Origin: Candidatus Kapaibacterium sp. | Lineage (GTDB): Bacteria; Bacteroidota; Ignavibacteria; OLB7 | Reading direction: 5' to 3' | DNA: 36,482 nt | Assembly (NCBI GenBank): GCA_050248595.1 | Contig: JBFWSB010000004.1 | Coordinates: 1-36,482, forward strand | In this document: positions 2,629 to 14,798 of the stretch, in pieces | How positions within the stretch are numbered: the stretch's first letter is position 1 | Layout of the letters: each line of letters starts with the position of its first letter | The notes under the pieces: generated by a model | Seen by the model: the letters and a program-made list of their open reading frames with translations, nothing else | The model's database searches: none | Told to the model about the DNA's origin: nothing | Program-made: the position numbers and the translations under genes

Positions 2629-4269
2629 TCAATCCTCTTCACTTTCAGTGAAGAATTGCCCGATGGTGTAATCGGCAGCACAGCAGATTTTGGTTCTGTT
2701 AGTCGAGGTTCGAGTCCTTGTCGGGCAACCAAACGGGACTAACTCCGGAAACGTGGAGTTAGTCCCGTTTTCTTTTCTTCGATTCTCTTCAGAATTCCGC
2801 GATAATAGGGCAAGAACAGGGTTCAAGTCTGTGGTTTGATATTTTCCTCCGACATAGGTAAAATTCCCCCTACATATCGAACCGATCATCTTTTGCTTCC
2901 CTTCCAGCGTAGCTCCGTTGTAGTACGTTCCGAGGTCTGCAATCAGAGACAAACCGTAGTTTATGTAGCGTTCAAAGCCTTTTTCTACTGACAGAACGTC
3001 AAGCCGTTGCCGTTTGAGTTGGTTTGATAATTGGTCGTATCGGTCTTTGAGTCGGTGGAATGAATCGCTACCGATTGTCCCTTCTATGAACTTTTCCTCT
3101 GCGTTGAACAACTTCTCCTGAACCCCTTCCAGTTCGTTGTCGATCCGGGTAAGTTCTCCCTCTTGACTCTCTCCGTGCCGGTTGAAAATGTCCTTCATTA
3201 CTGCGTGATAGAGTTCGGCAACTTCCGAAGAGATTGAGAGTGAGGAGAGGAACGCCACAAAGTCACGGTTTGCGCTATCGGCTCTGAATCGCTCCGTGCA
3301 TCCTTTCTGACAGTGGTAGTAGTAGTAATATCCTCCGTTCCCCTTTATCCGGCTCCCTGTCAGTTTTCCGCCGCACTTGTTGCACTTCAGAAACCCACGT
3401 AACGGCAACTGTGCATTCCGTCTCTTCGGCTTTCCCCGTCGTTCTCCGTTGCGTCGTGAAAGAATGTCCTGAACTTCATCGAACAGGTCTTCATTCACTA
3501 TCGGTTCATGCAAGCCGGGAACAAGTATCTCCTCTTCGTCTCTCCACTCCGGTATGGGAACGTATCCCTTATAGACTGGATTCCGGAGGAGCCGGGCAAA
3601 CACGCTCTTTGAACAGTCGAACCCTTTAGCTATCAGCTTCCGCCGTATCTCTTCAACGGTATATATTCCCCGTGCAGCCAAGTTGAACGCTTCCCTCACA
3701 AACCGGGCGTTGTCGTCCGGTTGCATTAACGGCTTTCCCCCTGCATCCCTTCCGGGACTGTATCCTTTCGGAGGTCTGTTCACGTATCGACCTTCCCGCA
3801 TTGCCCTACGCATCCCCTCAATAGTGTTTAGAGACCGTCGTTCGTTTTCGACTTCGGGAGCAGTGAGATAGAAATTGAACATGAACCTGTTTTCCGGAAT
3901 GCTCAAGTCTACTGGTTGTTCTACGGCTTGTACCTGAACACCCAAGTCAGCGAGAACACGCAACATCCGATAGGACTCTTCGACGTTGCGTGAAAACCTG
4001 TCCCACTTCACCACAAGCAACAGGTCAACCTCACGTTTGTTCTTCTGAATAAACTCAAGCAAGCGGTTGAACTCCGGACGATGGAAGGACTTTGCTGAAG
4101 CGTCGTCCTGATAGTGATCGACAATTGCTATTTCCTTGTACTCACAGTATTGTCGTAAGCGTTCCTCTTGTGCCCGGAGAGAGTACCCCTTTTCCGCCTG
4201 TTCGTCAGTGGATACACGGGTGTAGATGATTGCTCTCTTCTCCTTGAGACTTTCGCGTGAACTCTTCAT
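2629..4269 (-). CDS. Large serine recombinase (integrase), integrated-state form
   Basis: Catalytic motif YTRVST (Ser20) and DRFSRN; recombinase domain LLRNPVYKG...HEPIV; zinc ribbon LRGFLKCNKCG...YYHCQKGC; then a coiled coil. The last 30 codons run antisense through the tRNA. Confidence 0.96.
   Translation of the reverse strand: MKSSRESLKEKRAIIYTRVSTDEQAEKGYSLRAQEERLRQYCEYKEIAIVDHYQDDASAKSFHRPEFNRLLEFIQKNKREVDLLLVVKWDRFSRNVEESYRMLRVLADLGVQVQAVEQPVDLSIPENRFMFNFYLTAPEVENERRSLNTIEGMRRAMREGRYVNRPPKGYSPGRDAGGKPLMQPDDNARFVREAFNLAARGIYTVEEIRRKLIAKGFDCSKSVFARLLRNPVYKGYVPIPEWRDEEEILVPGLHEPIVNEDLFDEVQDILSRRNGERRGKPKRRNAQLPLRGFLKCNKCGGKLTGSRIKGNGGYYYYYHCQKGCTERFRADSANRDFVAFLSSLSISSEVAELYHAVMKDIFNRHGESQEGELTRIDNELEGVQEKLFNAEEKFIEGTIGSDSFHRLKDRYDQLSNQLKRQRLDVLSVEKGFERYINYGLSLIADLGTYYNGATLEGKQKMIGSICRGNFTYVGGKYQTTDLNPVLALLSRNSEENRRKENGTNSTFPELVPFGCPTRTRTSTNRTKICCAADYTIGQFFTESEED
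2657..2731 (+). tRNA. tRNA-Gln (anticodon TTG), CCA encoded
   Basis: Acceptor stem TGCCCGA/TCGGGCA, D arm TGGTGTAATCGGCAGCAC, anticodon arm GCAGA-TT-TTG-GT-TCTGT, T loop GGTTCGAGTCC, 3' end ACCA. Confidence 0.97.
2721..2843 (+). repeat. Left junction; copy 1 of a 123-bp imperfect direct repeat
   Basis: Gapless hand alignment to 8274-8396 gives 106/123 identities. Confidence 0.93.
2731..2779 (+). terminator. Intrinsic terminator for tRNA-Gln, embedded in integrase coding sequence
   Basis: Perfect 16-bp stem AAACGGGACTAACTCC (2731-2746) / GGAGTTAGTCCCGTTT (2755-2770), 8-nt loop, followed by TCTTTTCTT. Confidence 0.85.
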
Positions 4270-4381
4270 AGTCGATTTGTCCTAACTGGTAGAGTAGTTC
4301 TCGAATCTGTTTTACTTCATCATCAGTGAACGTTCTTCCGTTCTTGTTTAGAATGGATTTGCATTGTTCCAATGTCAACAT
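4205..4381 (-). CDS. 58-aa small protein overlapping the integrase start (below the ORF-track cutoff)
   Basis: Hand translation MLTLEQCKSILNKNGRTFTDDEVKQIRELLYQLGQIDYEEFTRKSQGEESNHLHPCIH*. ATG 4381, TGA 4205-4207, amphipathic helical pattern, 65-nt overlap with the integrase. Confidence 0.7.
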   Translation of the reverse strand: MLTLEQCKSILNKNGRTFTDDEVKQIRELLYQLGQIDYEEFTRKSQGEESNHLHPCIH

Positions 4382-4684
4382 TTGTCAACACAGCAGTTGA
4401 ACCTGTCTCCGGGTTTTCCGGTCAACTGGTTGGTCTGTGTTTGGTTGCCTCCGGGCTAACCGGTCAGCTATCGTTTACGCAATGTTCTGTCCCCTATTTC
4501 TCGCCTTGTTGGGAATAGTTTTGTACGGTTTCAATGTCAACATTTGTCAACATTGAATGAACGTTTCTCCGGGTGCTTCATCACCTGTATTTCCGCGATT
4601 TCAGAGCCTAACCCCTGTTTTTGCCATTGTGCTGAATGGATTTGAGGTTCAACATTCCTCAATAGCAAATGAACCGGTTTTCGG
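4351..4684. repeat. Three degenerate tandem copies of the small-ORF 5' region
   Basis: Exact 21-mer CAATGTCAACATTTGTCAACA at 4370-4390 and 4532-4552, each followed by GAACnTnTCTCCGGG. A looser third copy lies at about 4634-4684. Confidence 0.8.
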
Positions 4685-4703
4685 CTGCTCTGTTCGTCTA
4701 CAC

Positions 4704-5648
4704 TTACGCCAATTTCTTTAGCGTCGTCCGTGTCATCCTCACAACTTTTCCGTCTCGCTTCTTGATCTCGATGTTCTGGAAATCTTCCTGTTTCAGAACG
4801 TCGGCTATCCGTTGTCCTGTTATCACTTCCTCTGATTCTATCGTTTCAATCATGCCCCCCTTACTACGAATTGTCAGGGAGTCATAGTTCCCTGTCCGCA
4901 ACATCAAGAGGAACTCCTGTTCTTCTTCTGTGAGGTCATAGCCTGTTCCGAAATCAGGTGTGAAGTTTGAGTTCTGGAATACTCCGCGTAGAATCAGGGA
5001 GAAATCAATCAGGACGTAATGGAAGAGAGCAAGTGAACGATTCTTGTTTGCTTCGTGATATGTTCCTGACTTTTCATCTTGCACCATCACCGAGCCTTTC
5101 GACTTCTTCTCTTTTTGCTCCTGTTCAAATTCTTCCGGTGTTATGGTTCTCGCATAGGGCGGATTCTGTCCGAGAATTGATTGCAGGTATTCTTTGAAGA
5201 AGAGAAGTTCAGCGTCACCATACTGGAACACTCGCATGTAAACGGGATCATTGCGAGTCATCGCACAGACAAGGTAGTATTCAAACAGAGAGAGTTCCAT
5301 TCCTTCCGGTACTACCCGCACAGAGTCTTTCACCCTCTTGAGTTTTTCAATCGGAACTCCGAAGTATCGGAGGTCTGTGAGAATGCGAATCCATACAAGG
5401 TCAGCCATACTGAACTTACGCCACCCCTTCCCCTCTTCCCGGTCGTCCTCAAGCAATTCAAGTTCTGTCCAGTGGTTCAAGGCACGATATGTCAAGTCTG
5501 TTTCCTTGACGGTATAGAGCTTCTCATTTACTCTCTCTACTGACTTCCTTGCGTACTCTGAATCCATGAAGCTGAAGAACTCGACAAGAACAGGATCGTC
5601 AACCCATGAGCCGTTTTCTCTCTTTACCAGTGCTTTTTGTGTCGTCAT
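4704..5648 (-). CDS. MerR-like HTH transcriptional regulator with an uncharacterised C-terminal domain
   Basis: LTYRALNHWTELELL...GWRKFSMADLVWIRILTDLRYFGVPIEKLK follows the MerR winged-HTH pattern. Confidence 0.8.
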   Translation of the reverse strand: MTTQKALVKRENGSWVDDPVLVEFFSFMDSEYARKSVERVNEKLYTVKETDLTYRALNHWTELELLEDDREEGKGWRKFSMADLVWIRILTDLRYFGVPIEKLKRVKDSVRVVPEGMELSLFEYYLVCAMTRNDPVYMRVFQYGDAELLFFKEYLQSILGQNPPYARTITPEEFEQEQKEKKSKGSVMVQDEKSGTYHEANKNRSLALFHYVLIDFSLILRGVFQNSNFTPDFGTGYDLTEEEQEFLLMLRTGNYDSLTIRSKGGMIETIESEEVITGQRIADVLKQEDFQNIEIKKRDGKVVRMTRTTLKKLA

Positions 5649-5650
5649 AG

Positions 5651-5718
5651 AACCTTACCTATACGTATGATTTGCAGCGAAGATAGCTCCACTGCAAATC
5701 ATACGCAAGTGTAAGGTT
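5651..5718. promoter_or_regulatory. 68-bp symmetric inverted repeat directly upstream of the MerR-like gene (operator or 5' hairpin)
   Basis: AACCTTAC-N5-CGTATGATTTGCAG-N14-CTGCAAATCATACG-N5-GTAAGGTT; the 14-bp and 8-bp arms are perfect. Confidence 0.7.
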
Positions 5719-5784
5719 TGTCCTTTTTGAGAAGGAACCTGATTTCAGGAGAAAACCGGTTGCTTCAATCCCGGATGGATTGAC

Positions 5785-6024
5785 CTACAATGAACCCGGT
5801 TTCAGGTTTTTTAAGGTTGTCTGGAGAACCCGAATGTCTTCGAGAACGTCACTGATAACCCATACAAGGCAGGCAGCTTCCTTCCCTCCGGCATGTTGAA
5901 GGCCAAAGGAAGCATATTCCAGAACGTGCAAACGTCCCTGATTCCGTTCGAGCAAGTGAAAGATGTCGTCAGGTCTGAACCCTTGAGCAGGTTCGGTGCG
6001 GTTGGTTGTGTGATGTTTGGACAT
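5785..6024 (-). CDS. Small hypothetical protein (79 aa)
   Basis: ATG-started ORF with helical character, co-oriented with the MerR-like gene and integrase, directly after a structured leader. Confidence 0.6.
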   Translation of the reverse strand: MSKHHTTNRTEPAQGFRPDDIFHLLERNQGRLHVLEYASFGLQHAGGKEAACLVWVISDVLEDIRVLQTTLKNLKPGSL

Positions 6025-6172
6025 AGTGGTTTGAACGTAGAAAATGCCGAGCCTTGTTCACGCCCACTAAGGAAGCGTCCCGCACCTCACGGTAACGGGA
6101 GACTCGGCAAGTTATAGCCGAAGCAAAACAAAACCGCGTTATCGGAGCGGTTTGCCGCTTAGTGGTTTGAAC
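6024..6172 (-). ncRNA. Structured leader / C4- or CI-like antisense RNA candidate
   Basis: Outer stem TGCCGAG/CTCGGCA (6045-6109), an inner hairpin closed by a GUGA (GNRA) loop, and a segment complementary to a 13-nt sequence repeated at 6024-6036 and 6160-6172. Confidence 0.55.
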
Positions 6173-6361
6173 AATCGTAAAATACAATCATAAGGATTCT
6201 ACACAAAGCCTTCTAACCGTTGGTTTTCCTTTATGGAGATGAGCACCCATAATCAGATTGCCCCGTATATGATTATCGCCTTAACTTCAGACTGCTTCAG
6301 TAGCTGGCCACTATAGGTTTCTTGTGGCTGAGGAAATTTTGACTCTCCAGATTTTGATTTG

Positions 6362-7081
6362 ATGCTACACTACAAAGTTTGGCAATGGTTAGGACAGCAT
6401 GGGACAACGGCAATGGCACCGGAAAAGGTTGGACTTTTCGGGATTGCAAAACCCTCTAATTCAAGACATCCTTTTGCTGTTGTCAACGAACTCATTTGTG
6501 AACGTATTGGCCGTTTTATTGGACTGCCCATACCTCCGGGATGCATTGTGACAAAGGGACAAATTCCTTATTTCGTTTCCTTGAATTTCAACTTGTCTGG
6601 TGAAGACTTACCTCCAATAATTCCATCTAAAGTCATTGCAGAGCAAAGCTATTTGTCATGGGGAGTGATAGTTTTTGACGCGTGGATGGTCAACTGTGAT
6701 CGCCATAACAATAACATCTCGTACGACACGTACACGCAACAACTTCATGTATTCGACCATAGCCATGCGCTCTTGTGTGGATCAAACCCGTTTGAAACAA
6801 TGGAAGTTCGGGAACAAAAGATTTTCAATATCCATTGCTTAGCAAAGCACGTTCTCAATCAGAATGGTCTTTCTGATTGGATTAACCGGGTTCAAATGGT
6901 TCCGGACTATGTAATAAAGGATACGGTAAACGACGCAGGAACCTATTGCACTTCAGCCAGTACGATAAGTCAATGCGTAGACTACCTTTTGAAGCGTCGA
7001 GACAATATTGAATCTATTATTGAGACTCACAAAAGCACTTTTCCCAATTTGATTCCCTCATTAACCAACGAATTGGAATAG
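6362..7081 (+). CDS. HipA-like (HipA_2-type) Ser/Thr kinase
   Basis: AK...VVNELICERIGRFIGLPIP, catalytic loop FDAWMVNCDRHNNN and Mg-binding VFDHSHAL. Start is TTG 6359 or ATG 6362. Confidence 0.85.
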   Translation: MLHYKVWQWLGQHGTTAMAPEKVGLFGIAKPSNSRHPFAVVNELICERIGRFIGLPIPPGCIVTKGQIPYFVSLNFNLSGEDLPPIIPSKVIAEQSYLSWGVIVFDAWMVNCDRHNNNISYDTYTQQLHVFDHSHALLCGSNPFETMEVREQKIFNIHCLAKHVLNQNGLSDWINRVQMVPDYVIKDTVNDAGTYCTSASTISQCVDYLLKRRDNIESIIETHKSTFPNLIPSLTNELE

Positions 7082-7085
7082 CATT

Positions 7086-7925
7086 ATGAAAGATCGCAAG
7101 GTTCAATTTCTTATAGCTCAATACCATAAAGACCCGTTCCGCAAGGAGCCTCAGAACATAGGAGTCATCGTACGTGATGAATCTTCCGGTGCATGCATGA
7201 TGCGTATGATCGGACAGGATTTTTCTGGTCATATAGATAAGCGGCATCTCAAACAGTTCAATCATCCCAACGTATATGTACAATGGATTGAGTATTGGAA
7301 TGACTGTCTCAGGGAGGAAAAGGAGGCTTTTGACATCCTTTTGAACCACTACTCCCCTCACTATCAGTGTATTGAAGGAGGAGAAGTAACGGAGGTCAAC
7401 GAGGATTGTTTAGCAGACATTGTCTCGAACCTTTTCAATCTACTTGTTACGGACTCCAGTGATCATGAGTCAAAAGCTCCTCTAAAAAGACGTGTGTTCA
7501 ATGAATTCAAACGGTGCCATTTGATAGCTCCCAAGAAGGAAGAGAACAAGATTTTTGATGTCCAACATCCGATATTGGTCAATGAGTGGATAAAAGGAGA
7601 ACATATAGATCACCAAGCATCTTTTGTTCAAAAGAATGGGCATTATGTGGTCATTGAAGCAGTTGATTTTAATAAGAGGCATAAGAATGTTGCACGCGAT
7701 AATGCAGGCAGGATTGCTTATATGTTTAAAGATATTCAGGCAAGGATGAAGGATAGTGAGACAATTGTCCTTCTAAGCCACAACAAAAAAGAAGAACTTG
7801 ATTCAAATCTTCGTTACGGCTTGGAGATGCTGAACGAGGAGGCACAATTCATTGTAGATTGGAGCAATAGAGATGAAAGAGAAACTTTTCTTCAAAAGCG
7901 AAAAGAATTAGCTCAAAGCAACTAA
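7086..7925 (+). CDS. DUF3037-like domain protein, partner of the HipA-like kinase
   Basis: N-terminal IAQYHKDPFRKEPQNIGVIV matches the DUF3037 Y-x-x-D-x3-E-x2-N-I-G-V pattern; starts 4 nt after the kinase stop. Confidence 0.8.
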   Translation: MKDRKVQFLIAQYHKDPFRKEPQNIGVIVRDESSGACMMRMIGQDFSGHIDKRHLKQFNHPNVYVQWIEYWNDCLREEKEAFDILLNHYSPHYQCIEGGEVTEVNEDCLADIVSNLFNLLVTDSSDHESKAPLKRRVFNEFKRCHLIAPKKEENKIFDVQHPILVNEWIKGEHIDHQASFVQKNGHYVVIEAVDFNKRHKNVARDNAGRIAYMFKDIQARMKDSETIVLLSHNKKEELDSNLRYGLEMLNEEAQFIVDWSNRDERETFLQKRKELAQSN

Positions 7926-8124
7926 ATGCTTGCAACAAATGAACAATGTCCAATGCCAGATGGTCTTTAACTGGTTCGTAAACTTGTTTTGCACTCGCTA
8001 TATCAACCTAACTGGAATTAGTCGTGTTCAGTAGAAATTGATCGGTCTCTCTTTTCAGTCGCATTCTTCATTGTCTTCACTCTCTACAGGCAACACTTTT
8101 CCCTTCTCTCTTGCAATTGCAGTA

Positions 8125-8274
8125 TCACTCGGGATATTCAAACAGGTGAGCGTAGTTCCCACTATTTACCTGAATCTGAGGTTTTCTGAGGTTCAGTGGT
8201 TGTACTTCAATCAGAGGATTGAGCCGGTATAGCTCTTTCAGACCTGTCAGGAAGGGTTGTATATCTGAAAGACT
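8125..8274 (-). other. Alternative (excised/attP-state) integrase C-terminal coding segment, 49 codons plus stop
   Basis: In frame with the FGCP codons of the att core: SLSDIQPFLTGLKELYRLNPLIEVQPLNLRKPQIQVNSGNYAHLFEYPE*. Confidence 0.75.
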
Positions 8275-8396
8275 CGGGCAACCAAACGGTACTGACTCCG
8301 GAAACGTGGAGTTAGTACCGTTTTTGTTTCTGCGATTCTCTTCAGATTTCCGCGATAACAGGGCACTTGCAGGGTTCAGATGTGGGGTTCGATATT
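8274..8396 (-). pseudogene. Right junction and remnant of a related serine-integrase 3' region (repeat copy 2)
   Basis: Encodes YRTPHLNPASALLSRKSEENRRNKNGTNSTFPESVPFGCP versus YQTTDLNPVLALLSRNSEENRRKENGTNSTFPELVPFGCP in the intact integrase. Homology stops at about 8396. Confidence 0.8.
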
Positions 8397-8497
8397 GCGG
8401 CCTTGCTTGGGTTTCCACGAACTCCAATCAGCACACCTAACAATACTTCCAATTCACATCTGTTCAACCAACAACGCAAGTTCATACGCTACATCTG

Positions 8498-10876
8498 TCA
8501 TTGTTTTGAAAGATGATTTCCAGATCGATCCACTAAAAACGTCGTCTCGTATCCTTGCTCATCTGTCTCGTGTGCGTGAAGCTGCCCCGACTCCGACATG
8601 ATGAACTGTCTCAATTGAAGAGGCGAACGCCCTTCGAGAAACGGGATCAGAGTTCTTCCACGAAGGTCGAGCAGGCACTGATTAGGGCCGTATTCAGTTT
8701 GGTTCGATAGAATGATAACTCCAGCCTGAACTTCGGCATAATCGTATCCGATCTCCACAATCGTGTCGTTCGTGATAGAGACCACTCCCCACTTCCGATC
8801 CTTCGTCACAACAAAGAGATTGTTGACGATTCCGAGTTCACGACCAAAGTTAGCTGAGTCGATCCGGTCATAAACTGATGGAACCGTCGTGTCGCCGTTG
8901 ATGTTGACGACACCCCTACCGCAGGCTGAATGACTCAACGGTTGAGAAAATGGTTCTGACAGGAGGGGTAATGAATCTCTCTCCCGACATTGCGAGACGA
9001 TCTCATAGCCGCGCCTCAGTCGTTGAGCCGTTCGGACTGAATCGGCTTGAGCTGAGGGAAGGAGTAGAGAGTTGCCGGGAACTCCATCAACTTCATCTGT
9101 GGAAGGGAGAAAGAAGCCCGGTCCAAAGTGTAGCGTATGCTTGATGTCAAACCAGTCGGCTACCGCTTCAACCACCATCGAAAAATGATAGTTGACGGTG
9201 TCGATCCTCCCATTTCGGTCGAAGAAAAAGTAGGTGCCAACGTATTGATAGCGTGGTATGCCGGTGTTCAATGAGATACCCGATCCGACAGATGCGATTC
9301 CCACGGAGTCGTTGACCCGAATGACTCCGTGAAAGCTCTGAAACGGATAAATCAATTCTGGGAAGATATCACGACCTTGAAGGTCGATGACCCGGTAGCC
9401 CTCACCGTTGTGTACGATCAATAAGTCGTCGAACAAGGGATAAATTGCCAAGTATTCTATCGGGATTAGCAGGCTGTCAGCCGAAGAGACGACACCAGTC
9501 AGAGAGTTCTGTCCAACAACAAATCGATTGTGGGCAATGGGAACGATTCGGTCGTAACGTATCGGGAGGAGAACTTCGTTCCGACCGTTCACCACTCCGA
9601 AGTGAGAGGCATTCGAAACAATGTATCGATCGTCACCTGCCGATCTGATTGAGTCGTAAACAAAGGGAAGAACAACGATGTTCTCTCGCGTTATCACACC
9701 ATACTTCGAGCCTCGTTGCGCAACCAGGTGACCGTTTCGGAAAGACATAGTGCTCTGGACAATCGTAGCGGGTTGACGCCCCCAGTTAATGGTCGTGATA
9801 AACGACGACGTGTCGACAGGAGAAATCAACGTGTAGTCGAACGGCAGGTGTATACGATTGAACGAGTCGATCACTCCGAATTGACCGTTCGCAGTAGCAA
9901 TGAAATTTCCTTGACCAAGTCGTGCAATCGAATCGTAGAGAGTTGGAACAGTGACTCTCCCGGTTGTGTCGACAACACCCCATTTGCCATCAGACAATGC
10001 CAGAGCAAGACCATCCTCAAACGAATCCAACCAATCGAATTTGGCTGGAACGATCATGCTACCTCGCCGATCAATTGCTCCGATCTTGTCTCTCCCCTCC
10101 TTCTCCACAACCTTCTGCGTCAGTCCATTCCTGAACCTCATAAGCGGAACGGAACGGCCATTAGATTGCAAGAGATACTCCTCAGCGAGCCAATTCTTTA
10201 CGAGCATTCTGCCAATTTGAGGAGCATCGATCACTACCAATTCATTGGTTGCTGGAGTGAGGAGTTCCATCGTTAGCGTTTGCTGTCTGACGATGAAAAA
10301 TTGTCCTTCTCCTACAAACTGCACATAGGATGCTCTGCCCAGATTCCGTACTCCTCCCCGTATGTCGACAAGCCCGTACTCCCAACTGTCCGAAAATCTC
10401 ACAATCGCGTAGCCATCGTAGAACGGACCGATGAACTCCGTCATGATGGGTTCAACAAGAATCTGACCGTCGATACCGATCAGTCCGTAGTGATTGTTCT
10501 GAGTCACGTTTGCAATACCGTTACTGTCGAACGGGTAGATCATATCGTAGATCGGTGGAACGATAATTTGGCCAGTGCTGTCGATTAACCCCACGTAACC
10601 GTTGTTGTAGAGGTAAGCTCTCTCCTCGACAAAGGTGTTCACCCAGTAGGACGAATCCGCAGGTGCAAACGACCTGGTAACGGGATCAAACACTCCATCA
10701 AGTCGTGTTTGCGCAGTAGATGGAAGGCAGGTAAGCAGAACGAAAAGAAGAGGCACCGCGACGTAGTCGAAGTATCGACGCGATGTCAAACGGTGCAATG
10801 TGATCCCTGATGCAGCTTCCATCGACAGGGAGTCAGTTGAGGAAAGAACGTCCTGAGCACTACGTAACTGAATCAT
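8498..10876 (-). CDS. WG-repeat (WG beta repeat) secreted protein
   Basis: Many units such as GKWGVVDTTGRVTVPTLYD and YGLIGIDGQILVEP; signal-like VAVPLLFVLLTCLPSTAQ. Start is uncertain (10972, 10876 or 10822). Confidence 0.88.
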   Translation of the reverse strand: MIQLRSAQDVLSSTDSLSMEAASGITLHRLTSRRYFDYVAVPLLFVLLTCLPSTAQTRLDGVFDPVTRSFAPADSSYWVNTFVEERAYLYNNGYVGLIDSTGQIIVPPIYDMIYPFDSNGIANVTQNNHYGLIGIDGQILVEPIMTEFIGPFYDGYAIVRFSDSWEYGLVDIRGGVRNLGRASYVQFVGEGQFFIVRQQTLTMELLTPATNELVVIDAPQIGRMLVKNWLAEEYLLQSNGRSVPLMRFRNGLTQKVVEKEGRDKIGAIDRRGSMIVPAKFDWLDSFEDGLALALSDGKWGVVDTTGRVTVPTLYDSIARLGQGNFIATANGQFGVIDSFNRIHLPFDYTLISPVDTSSFITTINWGRQPATIVQSTMSFRNGHLVAQRGSKYGVITRENIVVLPFVYDSIRSAGDDRYIVSNASHFGVVNGRNEVLLPIRYDRIVPIAHNRFVVGQNSLTGVVSSADSLLIPIEYLAIYPLFDDLLIVHNGEGYRVIDLQGRDIFPELIYPFQSFHGVIRVNDSVGIASVGSGISLNTGIPRYQYVGTYFFFDRNGRIDTVNYHFSMVVEAVADWFDIKHTLHFGPGFFLPSTDEVDGVPGNSLLLPSAQADSVRTAQRLRRGYEIVSQCRERDSLPLLSEPFSQPLSHSACGRGVVNINGDTTVPSVYDRIDSANFGRELGIVNNLFVVTKDRKWGVVSITNDTIVEIGYDYAEVQAGVIILSNQTEYGPNQCLLDLRGRTLIPFLEGRSPLQLRQFIMSESGQLHAHETDEQGYETTFLVDRSGNHLSKQ

Positions 10877-11035
10877 GCCATCTTGACGATTGTGAAAGAC
10901 TTGTTTGTGGAGGAATAGACAATAGTCGACGATCTTGTAACGGACATCAACACTCCAGATTCTCCTCCTCACATCATCTCATCCTGCCACACCGGTAACC
11001 TCTCAGTTGCTTGCTTAAACCAATCCCATCTCACC

Positions 11036-11176: not shown

Positions 11177-12979
11177 ATGAGTAGTATAAAACAGAGCGTT
11201 TGCTTCGTGGGCTTCCTCTCCCTGTTAACCGTGGCAATTCCTCTGCACGCCCAAGAACGAGACCTGCGTGCGGAGCGGCTTGTGCTGGATGATAACGGAA
11301 CCGACTCCACATTCAACACGATAACGATACAGGCTCCCTCATCACTGCCGCACGACCTTGTCCTGACCATACCAGATCCGGGAACCGGAACAGCAGAGTT
11401 CGTGCTTGCATCCTCGGGAAGTGGTGGGTTCTGGGGACTTGACGGCAACAGCGGAACGACACCCGGCACGCACTTTCTGGGAACGACTGATAGCGTGGCA
11501 GTACAGATTCAAGTGCGGGGAGCAAGTGGAACGATTGCCAACTCACTGATCCTGAACGAGAACGGGAGTTTGCAGCGGGATACGGGGGGAAATGCACGCG
11601 GAGCAAACGCGGTCGACCTTCAGATTTCCCGGAGTGCGGCAACCTATGTAGCAGGGAGCGATTATAGTGTCATCGGAGGGGGTGAACACAACGGGGTTGC
11701 CCCCACTGCCGATTACTCGACGATCGGTGGAGGGTCAACCAACGCCATACATGATAACGCCAGCTATTCCACAATAGGGGGAGGTGGAAGCAACACGATT
11801 GACACCAATTCTCGGTATGCTACGATTGGTGGAGGAGAACTGAACGTCATAGGGACGAATGCCAGCCATTCCACCATCGCGGGAGGAGAGGAGAACAGTA
11901 TTGACTCCACTTCGAATCAGGCTACGATTGGTGGAGGACGAGCAAACCAAATTCGCTCCGGAGCCAATAGCTCCACAATAGGGGGAGGATTCTTCAACCG
12001 GATTTTTGCCGACGCAACCCATGCCACAATTGGGGGAGGAGAAGATAACCGCATCCGCGAGGGAGCCACGCATTCAGCAATAATCGGTGGGTTCCGCAAT
12101 GACATTGGCTCCAACGCCAATTATTCAACGATTGGGGGAGGATTGACCAACAACATCAAAACCACAGCCGACTTTTCCTCGATCGGAGGAGGACAGGATA
12201 ACGTCATCGACATCTTTGCCACCAATTCCACAATCGGTGGAGGGCGTTCCAACTCAATAGGCGACAGTGCTGATTATGGAACCATCGGAGGAGGGCGATT
12301 GAACATTATCCGGGCACACGGTGATTACTCGACAATCGGCGGAGGGTTCGGTAATGTTATTGACGGTCAAAGTTCGGTTATTCCGGGAGGGAGAGGGTTG
12401 AGGCTGGAAGCCGATCGCAGCTTCGGATTTCTTTCCAACAGCGGAAGCAATGGTATGACCATATCGGAATCCGATGTGGCAGTCTTCGGCAACACCAATC
12501 TCTGGTTGGCGAACAACACCGGGACTGCAAGTCAGATCCGTTTCTACGAGGCTAATACGGGAACCGGAAACTTCCCCAGTTCGGACTTCTACACCTCGTT
12601 TGAAGCTCCGGCGCTTGGTGCGACAATCGAGTATATCCTTCCCGGGACAAAGCCGACCCTGGTCGGCCAGGTTCTGGAAGTCTCCGCAATCAACGGCAAC
12701 GAAATTACCCTGACGTGGGGAACCGACGATACGAGGACTGATCGTGATGGTGCGGACGTGCCAACTACCATAGCAGTACCGGACGACAGTTCCGGTTTGG
12801 AGAGTCGGGTAAAGAATCTTGAAGCAGAACTAAAAGCCCGTCGGCAATTGCTTGAAGCTCAGAAACAGCAGATAGAGGCTTTGCAGGCCGAGTTGCACGG
12901 GCTGGACAAACAAGGAACTAATCTCTCTTTGGAGGATATTGAGTTGAAGGAGAGCGTCAATGTGCAAAATGCTGAATAG
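11177..12979 (+). CDS. Secreted fibre/adhesin-like protein with 17-aa STIGGG-x2-N repeats and a C-terminal coiled coil (paralogue 1)
   Basis: Signal peptide (...AIPLHA-Q), WGLDGNSGTTPGTHFLGTTD motif, 14 consecutive 17-aa repeats and a heptad-rich C-terminus. Confidence 0.85.
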   Translation: MSSIKQSVCFVGFLSLLTVAIPLHAQERDLRAERLVLDDNGTDSTFNTITIQAPSSLPHDLVLTIPDPGTGTAEFVLASSGSGGFWGLDGNSGTTPGTHFLGTTDSVAVQIQVRGASGTIANSLILNENGSLQRDTGGNARGANAVDLQISRSAATYVAGSDYSVIGGGEHNGVAPTADYSTIGGGSTNAIHDNASYSTIGGGGSNTIDTNSRYATIGGGELNVIGTNASHSTIAGGEENSIDSTSNQATIGGGRANQIRSGANSSTIGGGFFNRIFADATHATIGGGEDNRIREGATHSAIIGGFRNDIGSNANYSTIGGGLTNNIKTTADFSSIGGGQDNVIDIFATNSTIGGGRSNSIGDSADYGTIGGGRLNIIRAHGDYSTIGGGFGNVIDGQSSVIPGGRGLRLEADRSFGFLSNSGSNGMTISESDVAVFGNTNLWLANNTGTASQIRFYEANTGTGNFPSSDFYTSFEAPALGATIEYILPGTKPTLVGQVLEVSAINGNEITLTWGTDDTRTDRDGADVPTTIAVPDDSSGLESRVKNLEAELKARRQLLEAQKQQIEALQAELHGLDKQGTNLSLEDIELKESVNVQNAE

Positions 12980-13022
12980 AGAGTTCCGCACCATGATCTC
13001 AATTGATAATTATACCGTGAAT

Positions 13023-14798
13023 ATGATGAGACTGAGCTTCGCCTTGATGGTAGCCCTCTCCCTCATCGTCGTGTCAACCGATCTGTACGGGCAAGGACGC
13101 GACCTACGTGCTGAACGCCTCGTCCTCGATGATAACAGAACCGACTCCACACTCAACACGATAACGATACAGACTCCCTCAACGCTGTCACACGATCTGA
13201 TCCTGACCATACCCGACCCGGGAATCGGGGCAACGGAGTTCAGATTGACCTCTTCAGGAAGTGGAGGGTACTGGTCACGTGCTGGCAACAGTGGAACGGT
13301 TCCCGGCACATCCTTTCTTGGAACAACAGACAGCACGGCACTCCAAATCCAGATACGGGGTGCGAGTGGAACAATCGCCAACTCGCTCATCCTCAACCAG
13401 AACAGAAGCTTGCAACGGGATACGGCGGGAGATGCGCGAGGACTGAATGCAGTCGACCTTCAGATAGTACGTAGTGCGGCGACGGAGGTCGCAGCGAGCA
13501 ATCACAGCATCATTACCGGCGGCGAGGGTAACGAGATAACGGCAACTGCTGGAACACATACGACGATACGAGGTGGATCAGGAAATATCATACGTGAGAA
13601 CCAGAGCAGGTCTGCAACGATTGGAGGAGGTTGGAACGGTCTGATTGAAAAAGGGCAACATACCGTAGTCGGTGGCGGAAACGGAAATGTCGTTGATTCG
13701 TCTGGCCCATACTCGGTGATCGGAGGAGGACGATCCAACTTCTTGAACCTCGCTTTTGCCTCGAGCATTGGTGGAGGGGGGGCAAATCGTAGTACCTTCT
13801 TTTCTGTCTATTCGCCGATAGGTGGCGGAGAGGAGAATGAACTTTATAACTCATCCGAATGTGTTGTTATTGGTGGAGAGTCCAATGAAATGTCGCAAAC
13901 GAGTGATGGTGCGATAGGGGGAGGAGGGATAAATTTGATTCAGTTCAATGCCCGCCGTGCCACGATAGGGGCAGGAATCGGAAACATCCTGGACGTCGGG
14001 GTCTCGTTTGCGACAATAAGGGGAGGTGCATTCAATTGGATACGCAGAAGAGCCATTTTTCCCAACGACAGCTGGGCCGTGATAGGTGGAGGAGCAGGTC
14101 ACACTCTCGGGCAAGGGAGCGGAACAAGTATCAGTAATGCTCTCTATGCTGTCATAGCAGGAGGGCGAGGAAATATCATTCGTGTAGATGGTGCATACAG
14201 TACAATCAGTGGAGGTACATTTCATGAAGTTGCCGATTCTTCCTCGGTGATACCTGGCGGACGTTCGCTTGATCTCAACGGCAACCGGAGTTTTGGATTC
14301 CTTGCCAACGGTGGGAGTAATAATATGGCAGTTTCGGAACCCGATGTTGCCCTCTTCGCCAACGTCAACGTTTGGCTGGCGAACAACAATAATCGCCCGA
14401 GCCAGTTGCGCCTGTATGAACCGTACGACACAACTGGCACGTTCCCCGGTTCGGCTCACTACACTTCATTCGAAGCTCCTCCCCTAACCGATACGATCCA
14501 GTATATCCTTCCAGCAACGAAGCCGAGCGCAACCGGTCAGGTTCTGGCAGTCTCGGCTATCAATGGTGACACGATTACCTTAGCGTGGGGAGCCGACAAC
14601 ACAGTAGCTGCTCGTGACGGTGGCGACGTACCAACGACGATAGCAGTACCCGACAACAATTCCCGTCTGGAGATTCAGATAAGGGAACTTGAGGCAGAGT
14701 ATGAAGCGCAAGAACGTCAGTTCGAATTGCAGCAGAAGGAGTTGAAGGCGTTGCAAACCAAGGTGCATCTATTGAAAAGGCAAGAGAGTGATCTTTGA
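13023..14798 (+). CDS. Secreted fibre/adhesin-like repeat protein (paralogue 2)
   Basis: Same architecture with strongly similar N- and C-terminal blocks (RDLRAERLVLDDN..., YTSFEAP..., DVPTTIAVPD). Probable start MMRLSF at 13023; the ORF is open from 12960. Confidence 0.82.
   Translation: MMRLSFALMVALSLIVVSTDLYGQGRDLRAERLVLDDNRTDSTLNTITIQTPSTLSHDLILTIPDPGIGATEFRLTSSGSGGYWSRAGNSGTVPGTSFLGTTDSTALQIQIRGASGTIANSLILNQNRSLQRDTAGDARGLNAVDLQIVRSAATEVAASNHSIITGGEGNEITATAGTHTTIRGGSGNIIRENQSRSATIGGGWNGLIEKGQHTVVGGGNGNVVDSSGPYSVIGGGRSNFLNLAFASSIGGGGANRSTFFSVYSPIGGGEENELYNSSECVVIGGESNEMSQTSDGAIGGGGINLIQFNARRATIGAGIGNILDVGVSFATIRGGAFNWIRRRAIFPNDSWAVIGGGAGHTLGQGSGTSISNALYAVIAGGRGNIIRVDGAYSTISGGTFHEVADSSSVIPGGRSLDLNGNRSFGFLANGGSNNMAVSEPDVALFANVNVWLANNNNRPSQLRLYEPYDTTGTFPGSAHYTSFEAPPLTDTIQYILPATKPSATGQVLAVSAINGDTITLAWGADNTVAARDGGDVPTTIAVPDNNSRLEIQIRELEAEYEAQERQFELQQKELKALQTKVHLLKRQESDL

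What the first reader, a model, noticed from the sequence alone, without database searches (positions are those of the whole stretch)
2629..8289. att site inside the serine-integrase gene: integration and excision swap the enzyme's C-terminus
Seen: the 16-bp core encodes the ...PFGCP codons of the integrase. In the integrated state the ORF continues for 30 aa through the antisense tRNA (TRTRTSTNRTKICCAADYTIGQFFTESEED, 546 aa in total). At the far end of the element the same core is followed, in the same frame, by 49 open codons (SLSDIQPFLTGLKELYRLNP...EYPE, 8125-8274) with an amphipathic-helix pattern, so circularisation would give a 565-aa isoform sharing the first 516 aa. Known analogues: attP lies within the integrase of the archaeal virus SSV1 (tyrosine type) and within the repressor of some mycobacteriophages, where it acts as a switch; tRNA targeting is mostly associated with tyrosine integrases. 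Inference: the recombinase may rewrite its own tail to control directionality, stability or activity according to integration state.
Basis: partly seen in the sequence, partly recalled or inferred. Interest (0 to 1): 0.88.

Follow-up and report, generated by a model that had tools for sequence, protein, structure and literature searches.

The report
Serine integrase gene split by integration
A small mobile element sits in a tRNA gene, and its integrase gene runs across the element's own joining site, so the enzyme carries a conserved two-helix tail only when the element is a free circle, which may tell it which way to recombine.

Summary
A 5,553-bp element lies between two exact 16-bp cores (2721-2736, 8274-8289) in the 3' end of tRNA-Gln. 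Its 546-aa large serine integrase reads through the core into 30 antisense-tRNA codons. At the far end the core is followed in frame by 49 open codons.

Three things are new.
1. This is a family trait. In 54 of 56 related loci that have an adjacent antisense tRNA, the integrase stop lies inside or beyond the tRNA.
2. The distal tail is not a chance ORF. It belongs to a conserved tail family, found at 12 junctions with tails of 49, 48, 47, 41, 27, 26 or 20 aa. A profile built without the window finds the window's tail at E 9e-5. Differences from a same-genus copy fall mainly on third codon positions.
3. A structure model docks the tail on the junction of the coiled coil and the second DNA-binding domain (score 0.70, best control 0.00). 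Directionality factors bind that junction in other serine integrases.

One correction: the repeat is about 128 nt at 86% identity, because a relic of an older integrase 3' end lies outside attR.

No circular junction was seen. Many family members have short, unrelated tails. The tail's function is inferred, not shown.

The parts
2657..2731 (+). tRNA-Gln(ttg). Its last 11 nt (3' acceptor strand + ACCA) lie in the attL core and are supplied by the element.
   Evidence: ARAGORN; sequence
2721..2736 (.). attL copy of the 16-bp identity block (core); the crossover is presumed to lie within it.
2731..2770 (+). Hairpin with a 17-bp stem followed by a T-run in the tRNA sense. It is a replacement intrinsic terminator for the tRNA and is encoded antisense inside the integrase ORF (residues ENGTNSTFPELVPF).
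   Evidence: dG -29.1 kcal/mol, z -6.1, 0 of 200 shuffles fold as well
2629..4269 (-). Large serine integrase, integrated-state form of 546 aa. Residues 1-516 are element-encoded up to the core. Residues 517-546 (2721->2632) are antisense tRNA.
   Evidence: (PF00239 8.8e-30, PF07508 1.2e-13, PF13408 1.4e-6)
4205..4381 (-). Conserved 58-aa ORF that overlaps the integrase start; candidate accessory or directionality factor.
   Evidence: tblastn hits directly upstream of the integrase in at least 37 other loci; no Pfam or PHROG family
4704..5648 (-). 314-aa protein with a MerR-type HTH, conserved upstream of the integrase in related elements.
   Evidence: PF13411 3.2e-7; tblastn hits in 14 loci
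6359..7925 (+). Cargo: HipA_2-like kinase (240 aa, 6359-7081) and a 279-aa protein of unknown function (7086-7925).
8125..8274 (-). Distal tail: 49 codons plus stop, in frame with the integrase across the core. Member of a conserved tail family.
8274..8289 (.). attR copy of the 16-bp core.
8290..8401 (-). Relic of the 3' end of an older, related integrase gene (from the YRT motif to the core), including a second hairpin at 8284-8323.
8125..8427 (-). 100-aa ORF across attR (relic + core + tail); probably not a gene in its own right.

Best explanation
Positions 2721-8289 are a 5.55-kb integrative element inserted in the 3' end of tRNA-Gln. It was inserted by a large serine integrase of a big, mostly Bacteroidota-associated family that targets tRNA genes and whose ORF runs across attP. 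SHOWN: The last ~27 codons before the crossover also encode, on the other strand, the replacement tRNA 3' end and, in this subclade, a replacement terminator hairpin. In a modelled homologue this stretch of protein is a disordered linker. Beyond the crossover the integrated copy reads 30 codons of antisense tRNA. A circle (or a tandem junction) instead reads the 49-codon segment at the element's far end, which belongs to a conserved family of helical tails. The complete 565-codon gene therefore exists only on the excised circle. Integration detaches the tail but leaves the catalytic and DNA-binding domains intact. The attR flank carries a relic of an earlier related element, which points to serial integration at the same tRNA. 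INFERRED: The tail is a tethered peptide that docks on the enzyme's own DBD2/coiled-coil junction. In that way the enzyme's behaviour (direction, activity or stability) would depend on whether the element is integrated or free.
For: Geometry. Integrase domains.
Family trait:
- 104 of 121 family proteins carry an antisense T-arm signature in their last 45 aa (regex; sequences).
- Of 80 genome loci, 56 have an antisense tRNA at the integrase 3' end (Leu 18, Arg 18, Pro 6, Glu 5, Lys 4, Asn 4, Met 1). In 54 of the 56 the stop lies inside or beyond the tRNA, a median of 15.7 codons in.
- 13 further loci have tRNA-like ends by eye.
Insertion: same-genus genome G002 has tRNA-Gln without the element. 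Contigs from two runs bridge attL and attR.
Tail conservation:
- phmmer with the 100-aa attR ORF against 1.84 billion representatives gave 4 hits at E<=1e-3. Two of them (P0122, E 1.5e-9; P0125, E 8.8e-4) align through the tail.
- A profile search found two full-length integrases with the tail (P0126, 567 aa; P0053, 532 aa) and four more tail-bearing fragments.
- Genome searches added G097, G003:C274 and G631.
- Tail lengths are 49, 49, 48, 47, 41 (five times), 27, 26 and 20 aa.
- Tail identity equals that of the last 40 integrase residues: window versus P0122, 41% versus 45%.
- An HMM built without the window ranks the window's attR ORF first among non-training segments (93,439 six-frame segments searched), E 9e-5, aligned to tail residues 7-44.
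- Window versus G003:C274, nucleotide differences at codon positions 1/2/3: 10/6/19 in the first 27 tail codons (chi-square p 0.022) and 19/14/30 in 43 codons (p 0.041).
Structure:
- AF2 model of P0126 has mean pLDDT 87.7. Residues 502-522 are below 50 (linker). The tail forms helices 524-534 and 547-563 at pLDDT 59-75.
- Complex model of integrase 1-516 with the 49-aa tail: score 0.70, best of 3 controls 0.00. This mark was reached by 58 of 80 solved complexes and 2 of 110 mismatched pairs. These counts hold only roughly because my own alignments were used. The three runs share at least 67% of contacts, and the partner's pLDDT is at least 65.
- The interface is integrase 348-365, 432-464 and 483-488 with tail residues 1-30. 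By the P0126 model this is the DBD2/coiled-coil junction.
Site architecture: a T-loop-like TCGAACC/TACAACC motif starts 8 nt beyond the core on the tRNA side and 13 nt beyond it on the element side in the window. The figures are 2 and 7 nt in L048. This 5-bp shift is what I recall for large serine integrase attB versus attP half-sites.
Against: - No circular junction or empty site was seen in the two runs that hold the locus. Only assembled contigs at about 5-7x were available, and these drop rare forms.
- Forty-nine open codons alone have P about 0.12-0.16.
- The long conserved tail is not universal. The closest homologue, P0002 (70% identity), ends one residue after the junction. Nine genome loci (L004, L021, L039, L047, L063, L065, L069, L074, L080) and three viral-collection loci (L093, L094, L098) have non-tRNA ends of about 1-38 aa that the tail HMMs did not match at their junction. 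Eleven of these 12 (all but L069) were also checked and hold no tRNA and only one integrase copy in the DNA fetched.
- Only 3 of the 12 tail-bearing junctions are attached to a full-length integrase. The others are integrase fragments.
- First-pass pairwise comparison of seven assorted tails was weak: 4 of 21 pairs at p<0.05, and partly out of register.
- The codon-position test is only modestly significant and rests on one DNA pair.
- The docking is a model made with a 5-row tail alignment. Solved integrase-RDF complexes exist, so part of the score could come from memory of that interface.
- No dyad symmetry was found around the core.
Confidence: 0.7

Rival explanations
1. The functional integrase ends in the disordered linker, and anything beyond the crossover is untranslated or irrelevant read-through. 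On this view the similarity of the distal segments reflects DNA-level constraints at the element end, such as the attP arm or other cis sites.
For: Tails at non-tRNA junctions range from 0 to 49 aa and most do not match the motif. P0002 ends 1 residue after the junction. The chance of 49 open codons is 0.12-0.16. The linker itself is poorly conserved.
Against: Conservation extends 27-45 codons (80-135 nt) beyond the crossover. That is far longer than the ~25-30 bp I recall for a serine-integrase half-site. Substitutions are conservative (L/I/V, K/R). Stop positions are conserved within subgroups (49/49/48 aa; 41 aa five times). Differences concentrate on third codon positions. The HMM gives E 9e-5. 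The tail is predicted to dock specifically.
Confidence: 0.15
2. The conserved unit is the short ORF across attR (integrase C-terminal fragment + linker + tail). It would be made from the integrated element as a small regulator, for example a decoy for the DBD2/coiled-coil junction, and not as a tail of the full-length enzyme.
For: Nine of the 12 tail-bearing ORFs are integrase fragments. In three cases of this subclade the relic begins at almost the same codon, the YRT motif.
Against: The N-termini and start codons of these ORFs are unrelated to each other. In the P0125 group the fragments start at variable points. tRNA-form fragments are just as common in the same search. Three full-length integrases carry the tail. 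Integration into a tRNA without a relic would provide no integrase-like upstream part.
Confidence: 0.08
3. The 16-bp core is not the crossover. The ~128-nt repeats would arise from duplication or homologous recombination, or strand exchange would occur in the hairpin palindrome, so the proposed 565-aa fusion would never form.
For: The repeat is much longer than the core. The only strong dyad symmetry near the site is the hairpin.
Against: The left edge of identity coincides exactly with the start of the tRNA 3' acceptor strand. Each hairpin copy keeps its own compensatory pair (G..C versus T..A), so the copies are not loop-crossover hybrids. L048 shows the same layout with a 19-nt block ending at the T-loop. 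In the family, tRNA-form and tail-form proteins diverge at the acceptor/T-arm boundary.
Confidence: 0.05

Closest known systems
SSV1-type 'suicidal' tyrosine integrases of archaeal viruses and plasmids
   Same: attP lies inside the integrase ORF, so integration partitions the gene and the complete gene exists only on the circle.
   Different: Those are tyrosine recombinases. The review PMC8371274 (passages read) describes them as found exclusively in archaea. Their gene is cut into two large parts, which inactivates it. Here the enzyme is a bacterial large serine recombinase, only the last ~9% (the tail) is detached, and all catalytic and DNA-binding domains stay together.
Integration-dependent immunity of mycobacteriophage BPs and relatives
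   Same: attP lies inside an ORF, so the viral and prophage forms differ by a C-terminal segment (33 aa) that changes the protein's fate (abstract and passages of PMC4557955).
   Different: The gene affected there is the repressor, the integrase is of the tyrosine type, and the detached part is an ssrA-like degradation tag. Here the recombinase itself is affected, and the tail is a helical module predicted to dock on the enzyme.
Canonical large serine integrases (phiC31, Bxb1, LI/A118, SPbeta) with separate RDFs, and engineered integrase-RDF fusions
   Same: Same domain order, with a coiled coil inserted in DBD2. RDFs bind the DBD2/coiled-coil junction. Engineered fusions tether the RDF to the integrase C-terminus by an 18-residue flexible linker (PMC12286644, passages). 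The natural protein here has a ~20-25-residue disordered linker and a tail predicted to dock on the same junction.
   Different: In the canonical systems, as I recall, attP is intergenic, the targets are mostly protein-coding genes, and the RDF is a separate, separately regulated protein. Here the docking peptide is part of the ORF and is attached or detached by the recombination reaction itself. It is present in the free state, the opposite of what an excision factor would need.
tRNA-targeting genomic islands and tycheposons
   Same: Insertion in a tRNA 3' end, which the element restores. Tandem arrays and relics of fragmented integrases occur at the same tRNA (tycheposon preprint 10.1101/2020.12.28.424599, passages).
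   Different: Those elements use mostly tyrosine recombinases (910 of 937 in that preprint), and no overlap of the integrase ORF with the att site is described in the passages I read.

Membership tests
Large serine recombinase (serine integrase) | N-terminal resolvase catalytic domain with the serine nucleophile | tested here: met
   PF00239 E 8.8e-30, residues 13-162. The YTRVSTDEQ motif is present, and R18, S20 and Q24 are invariant in 25 family members.
Large serine recombinase (serine integrase) | Recombinase domain (DBD1) followed by a zinc-ribbon domain (DBD2) | tested here: met
   PF07508 E 1.2e-13 (186-273); PF13408 E 1.4e-6 (289-322).
Large serine recombinase (serine integrase) | Coiled coil inserted in DBD2 | tested here: met
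   The AF2 model of homologue P0126 has helices 350-397 and 403-446 at pLDDT above 90. The window's own protein was not modelled alone.
Large serine recombinase (serine integrase) | Catalyses attP x attB recombination with a 2-bp staggered cut | not testable with these tools
   Needs an in vivo or in vitro assay.
tRNA-integrating genomic island | Insertion in a tRNA gene whose 3' end is restored, flanked by direct repeats | tested here: met
   The tRNA-Gln is intact by ARAGORN. Exact 16-bp repeats cover its last 11 nt.
tRNA-integrating genomic island | Unoccupied site in a relative | tested here: met
   G002 (same genus) has tRNA-Gln at 97% identity to the window's tRNA-Gln and the DNA just upstream of it, with no integrase or cargo. 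It does carry a 48-nt copy of the hairpin, probably a relic. G001 has a different sequence downstream of the tRNA.
att-site-within-integrase arrangement (as in SSV-type integrases) | The crossover lies upstream of the integrase stop codon | tested here: met
   The stop is 90 nt beyond the core in the window. The stop lies inside or beyond the tRNA in 54 of 56 related loci. The exact crossover nucleotide was not determined.
att-site-within-integrase arrangement (as in SSV-type integrases) | The detached 3' segment is a conserved, in-frame coding sequence | tested here: met
   This holds for a subset of the family only.
att-site-within-integrase arrangement (as in SSV-type integrases) | The circular form with the complete gene is observed | tested here: inconclusive
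   No joints were found in contigs of 3 runs. Raw reads were not available. Tandem junction L048/P0126 shows the full-length gene fused to a tail in a chromosome.
Integration-dependent C-terminal degradation switch (BPs type) | The detached tail ends in a protease tag and the two forms differ in stability | not tested
   The window's tail ends ...HLFEYPE. The 41-aa tails end KKAV, KRAS or KTAS.

The most novel reading that the evidence does not exclude
The tail is a built-in, topology-coded directionality module. On the circle, the full-length integrase carries a tethered peptide that occupies the DBD2/coiled-coil junction. This would keep a co-expressed directionality factor (candidate: the conserved 58-aa ORF overlapping the integrase start) from binding, so the enzyme can only integrate. 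Integration cuts the tail off, frees the junction and makes the same operon competent for excision. Direction would then be set by the recombination product itself, with no need for separate regulation of a directionality factor.
Probability: 0.2. Interest if true: 0.92.

Novelty: new variant of a known kind. Interest (0 to 1): 0.78.

Why it matters
How large serine integrases choose between integration and excision is a central question for these enzymes. They are also major genome-engineering tools. The known answer is a separate, diverse and hard-to-find directionality factor that binds the DBD2/coiled-coil junction.

This family appears to attach and detach a junction-binding peptide through the recombination reaction itself. 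If the tail changes direction, activity or stability, it would be a self-contained switch that could be moved to other integrases.

It would also be the first bacterial, serine-type counterpart of the archaeal integrases that carry their att site inside the gene.

The finding also defines a large, uncharacterised set of tRNA-targeting serine integrases with predictable attB sites. My six paper searches found no description of such an arrangement. Subscription journals and supplementary files were not covered.

Tried and rejected
- Phage and plasmid collections: tblastn with the integrase at E<=1e-30 gave one 29%-identity phage hit and no plasmid hit, so no free attP-form genomes were found there.
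- Metagenome contig scan: only 3 distant relatives, 36-42% identity.
- Search for attR within 10 kb upstream of 56 tRNA-adjacent loci: only L048 had a repeat longer than 12 nt (19 nt). Three other loci had 12-nt matches that I take as chance. Most elements are therefore larger than 10 kb or share short cores.
- Read laying: 3 runs, contigs only, no joints. The loose ends near 2661-2729 belong to tRNA-Gln genes of other organisms (3-5 mismatches).
- Dyad-symmetry scan of the reconstructed attP and attB: only the hairpin scored, 18 of 24.
- Pairwise comparison of seven assorted tails: one search used a wrong frame for the window's tail and is void. One search, corrected, gave 4 of 21 pairs at p<0.05. 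This weak result was superseded by the database searches.
- Phylum- and class-wide genome searches with profile A3 (401 genomes each, G000 included): 7 and 3 genomes matched. L178 (G220) is a false positive, a short-chain dehydrogenase.
- P0123 and P0124 are repeat proteins and count as noise.
- PADLOC and PHROGs gave only weak or unnamed hits for the cargo.
- A third copy of the core near 11000, which would mark the older element's far end, was not found.

Full report
WHAT IS THERE. ARAGORN finds one tRNA in the window, tRNA-Gln(ttg), at 2657-2731 on the + strand. Converging on it from the right is a 546-aa ORF (4269->2629, - strand). It has the three Pfam domains of a large serine recombinase: Resolvase 8.8e-30, Recombinase 1.2e-13 and Zn_ribbon_recom 1.4e-6. 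The 16-mer TCGGGCAACCAAACGG occurs exactly twice in the window, at 2721-2736 and 8274-8289. Its first 11 nt are the 3' acceptor strand plus ACCA of the tRNA.

On the - strand the core encodes ...PFGCP. After the left copy the ORF continues for 30 codons of antisense tRNA. After the right copy the same frame stays open for 49 codons, SLSDIQPFLTGLKELYRLNPLIEVQP...EYPE, with the stop at 8127-8125.

Between the cores lie:
- the integrase;
- a 58-aa ORF overlapping its start;
- a 314-aa protein with a MerR-type HTH;
- a HipA_2-like kinase;
- a 279-aa protein of unknown function.
The element has 45.2% G+C against 48.5% for the window.

The repeat does not end at the core. Positions 2721-2843 and 8274-8396 are 86% identical, and the alignment runs to about 2848/8401. 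The right-hand copy translates to YRTPHLNPASALLSRKSEENRRNKNGTNSTFPESVPFGCP. That is the last 40 residues of a related integrase (tblastn E 2.4e-14).

The DNA outside attR is therefore a relic of an older element's integrase 3' end, which points to serial integration at the same tRNA. Tandem arrays and integrase fragments at tRNA sites are described for tycheposons (preprint 10.1101/2020.12.28.424599, passages). Locus L048 shows an intact tandem pair of this same family.

Both repeat copies contain a hairpin with a 17-bp stem directly after the tRNA's CCA. A T-run follows it in the tRNA sense. The fold energies are -29.1 and -27.8 kcal/mol, z is about -6, and 0 of 200 shuffles fold as well. The two copies differ by a compensatory pair.

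A similar hairpin plus T-run sits inside the 3' end of a 56%-identical integrase next to tRNA-Asn in same-genus genome G003. The hairpin therefore belongs to the element. It reads as a replacement terminator for the tRNA, encoded antisense within the integrase ORF.

IS IT AN INSERTION? Same-genus genome G002 has the tRNA-Gln at 97% identity to the window's tRNA-Gln and the DNA just upstream of it. It has no integrase or cargo. After a 48-nt copy of the hairpin and about 300 nt it continues into a homologue of the window's gene at 11177. G001 has a different sequence after its tRNA-Gln.

The integrase occurs in 3 of 41 related genomes searched, G000 included. Assembled contigs from two runs of one study bridge attL and attR, and one of those runs may be the source of the window. 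No circle or empty-site joint appears. These are low-depth contigs, so this says little.

A FAMILY TRAIT. The protein search gave 2,246 relatives at E<=1e-20 among 8,000 scored candidates, and the best 120 were listed. Their C-termini are translations of antisense tRNA T-arms: GLEPRTP, GFEPGTS, GIEPVS, GFKPETF, RTRTYDPL. A regex for this signature matches 104 of 121 proteins, the window's included.

Eighty genome loci, mostly Bacteroidota MAGs and isolates, were examined:
- 56 have an antisense tRNA at the integrase 3' end (Leu 18, Arg 18, Pro 6, Glu 5, Lys 4, Asn 4, Met 1).
- In 54 of those 56 the stop lies inside or beyond the tRNA, a median of 15.7 codons in.
- Of the other 24, 13 still end in tRNA-like peptides by eye, 2 run off the contig too early to tell, and 9 end in other sequence.
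An ORF that spans the att site is thus the rule in this family. The review of archaeal tyrosine recombinases calls the att-within-integrase layout exclusive to archaea (PMC8371274, passages). My six literature searches found no serine-type case.

IS THE DISTAL TAIL REAL? Openness alone is not evidence: P of 49 or more open codons is about 0.12-0.16. A first comparison of seven assorted non-tRNA tails was weak.

The decisive result came from searching with the 100-aa ORF across attR against 1.84 billion representative proteins. It gave 4 hits at E<=1e-3. Two of them, P0122 and P0125, consist of an integrase 3' fragment, a junction and a tail that aligns with the window's tail:
- window: SLSDIQPFLTGLKELYRLNPLIEVQP
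- P0122: DSANIKPFLAGLKSLYSLKPFVPVKL
- P0125: TFSNQFLEGMKQLYELEPFIKVKP
- L048: ELSNQFYEELNKMFNLRHHLKVDP

A profile search restricted to longer proteins then found P0126 (567 aa, full length, identical to the L048 junction ORF), P0053 (532 aa, full length) and P0127-P0130. In the same subgroup it also found many tRNA-form proteins ending ...VPMTG|LEPALYC.

Genome searches added three more:
- G097, a 532-aa integrase with a 20-aa tail and no tRNA within 20 kb on either side;
- G003:C274, with a 48-aa tail;
- G631, with a 27-aa tail.
That makes 12 junctions in about six tail types.

The evidence for coding constraint is as follows.
- Tail lengths are conserved within types: 49/49/48 aa, and 41 aa five times.
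- Tail identity matches that of the last 40 integrase residues: window versus P0122, 41% versus 45%.
- An HMM built without the window ranks the window's ORF first among non-training hits in 93,439 six-frame segments (E 9e-5).
- For the one DNA pair available (window versus G003:C274), differences fall mainly on third codon positions. The counts at positions 1/2/3 are 10/6/19 in the first 27 tail codons (p 0.022) and 19/14/30 in 43 codons (p 0.041). The adjacent true integrase relic shows the same pattern, 14/11/22.
- Upstream fragment and tail are mosaic. P0125 versus P0127 is 60% identical upstream and 90% in the tail, whereas P0125 versus P0128 is 80% and 41%. This is expected at junctions between two different elements.

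AGAINST UNIVERSALITY.
- The closest homologue, P0002, ends one residue after the junction.
- Nine genome loci and three viral-collection loci have non-tRNA ends of about 1-38 aa that neither tail HMM matched at their junction. Eleven of these 12, all but L069, were also checked for tRNAs and integrase copies. They have none of the former and one of the latter in the DNA fetched.
- Only 3 of the 12 tail-bearing ORFs are full-length integrases.
The conserved tail is therefore a property of several sublineages, including the window's, and not of the whole family as sampled. Some of the short ends may also be decayed junctions.

STRUCTURE. The AF2 model of P0126 (85-row alignment) is confident up to residue ~500 (mean pLDDT 87.7). 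It places a coiled coil at 350-446. Residues 502-522 fall below pLDDT 50. This is exactly the part encoded by the hairpin, tRNA-end and core DNA. The tail forms two helices, 524-534 and 547-563, at pLDDT 59-75. A disordered linker can tolerate the DNA-level constraints printed over it.

The complex model of the window's integrase 1-516 with its 49-aa tail scored 0.70, with the best of 3 controls at 0.00. This mark was reached by 58 of 80 solved complexes and 2 of 110 mismatched pairs. The counts hold only roughly because my own alignments were used. The runs agree in at least 67% of contacts, and the partner's pLDDT is at least 65. The model supports binding; it does not show it.

The contacts are integrase 348-365, 432-464 and 483-488 with tail residues 1-30. 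By the P0126 model (numbering offset +2) these are the DBD2-proximal ends of both coiled-coil helices and the adjoining DBD2 helices. According to PMC12286644 (passages), RDFs bind this junction and redirect the coiled coil. The same paper reports that RDFs fused to the integrase C-terminus by an 18-residue linker switch the enzyme to excision. The natural protein has the same architecture. Solved integrase-RDF structures exist, so part of the score might come from memory of that interface.

HOW IT PROBABLY WORKS.
Shown:
- The element's attP lies in the integrase ORF.
- The P' side carries the tRNA 3' end and a terminator inside the linker codons.
- The complete gene, with a conserved tail, exists only on a circle or at a tandem junction.
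- Integration replaces the tail with unselected tRNA-encoded residues.
Consistent with the site architecture of large serine integrases: a T-loop-like motif sits 5 bp further from the core on the element arm than on the tRNA arm, in both the window and L048. The rule itself is recalled; only states that DBD2 positioning differs between attP and attB.
Inferred:
- The tail docks on the DBD2/coiled-coil junction and makes the enzyme's behaviour depend on the element's state.
- The tail is present in the free state, so a plain excision-factor role would be in the wrong state.
- The reading I find most coherent is an anti-RDF that blocks a co-expressed accessory factor. The 58-aa ORF overlapping the integrase start is conserved in at least 37 loci.
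- Control of stability or simple activation is equally open.

UNEXPLAINED. In the window, G003:C274 and P0122 the integrase relic outside attR begins at almost the same codon, the invariant YRT motif. Those codons read TATCGAACC in the window's relic, which resembles an antisense T-loop. A pseudo-att site that causes site-specific deletions is one possibility. I could not test it.

VERDICT. The structural interpretation is supported. The function is open but now directly testable. I rate it a new variant of a known kind: att-within-gene switching, here in a bacterial large serine integrase. Interest 0.78.

Noticed in passing
window 4205-4381 (-): A 58-aa ORF overlapping the integrase start codon is conserved (33-66% identity) directly upstream of the integrase in at least 37 other loci of the family. 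It has no Pfam or PHROG family. It is a candidate directionality or accessory factor, translationally coupled to the integrase.
   Followed up: partly
window 4704-5648 (-): The 314-aa protein with a MerR-type HTH is conserved just upstream of the 58-aa ORF and the integrase in 14 loci. The three genes look like one recombination module.
   Followed up: partly
window 4343-4390, 4505-4552, 4627-4644: Direct repeats of 48 nt (83% identity), with a third partial copy. Each full copy ends in TGTCAACATTTGTCAACA. They lie between the MerR-like gene and the 58-aa ORF, so they may be operators or a promoter region of the module.
   Followed up: no
window 8290-8401; L185 (G003:C274) 1444-1767; protein P0122: The integrase relics outside attR begin at nearly the same codon (the invariant YRT motif) in three cases of this subclade. 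The YRT codons (TATCGAACC in the window's relic) resemble an antisense tRNA T-loop and the element-arm motif of L048. This may be a pseudo-att site.
   Followed up: partly
L085 (G002:C7), rows 1500-1450 of the minus-strand read: The same-genus genome without the element still has a 48-nt copy of the element-type terminator hairpin after tRNA-Gln. It lacks the 824-aa WG-repeat gene (window 8498-10972), which separates the tRNA island from the next shared gene in the window.
   Followed up: partly
window 6359-7925 (+): The cargo pair is a HipA_2-like kinase (PF20613 4.2e-9; phrog_3162; weak PADLOC PDC-M03A/PDC-M66A) and a 279-aa protein (phrog_5137, weak NsnC). It may be a toxin or defence module carried by this small element.
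   Followed up: no
L048 2383-4095 and 10001-11563: Two full-length integrases of the family lie in tandem next to tRNA-Glu. The distal one reads through a 19-nt core into the proximal element's 47-aa tail (protein P0126, 567 aa).
   Followed up: yes
proteins P0125, P0127-P0130 (C-termini): The 41-aa tails end in KKAV, KRAS or KTAS. From memory these resemble the basic C-terminal ClpX recognition motif of MuA transposase. The window's tail ends ...FEYPE and does not.
   Followed up: no
window 11177-12979 and 12960-14798 (+): Two adjacent paralogous ~600-aa secreted repeat proteins with nearly identical N-terminal regions. G002 has a homologue right after its tRNA-Gln.
   Followed up: no
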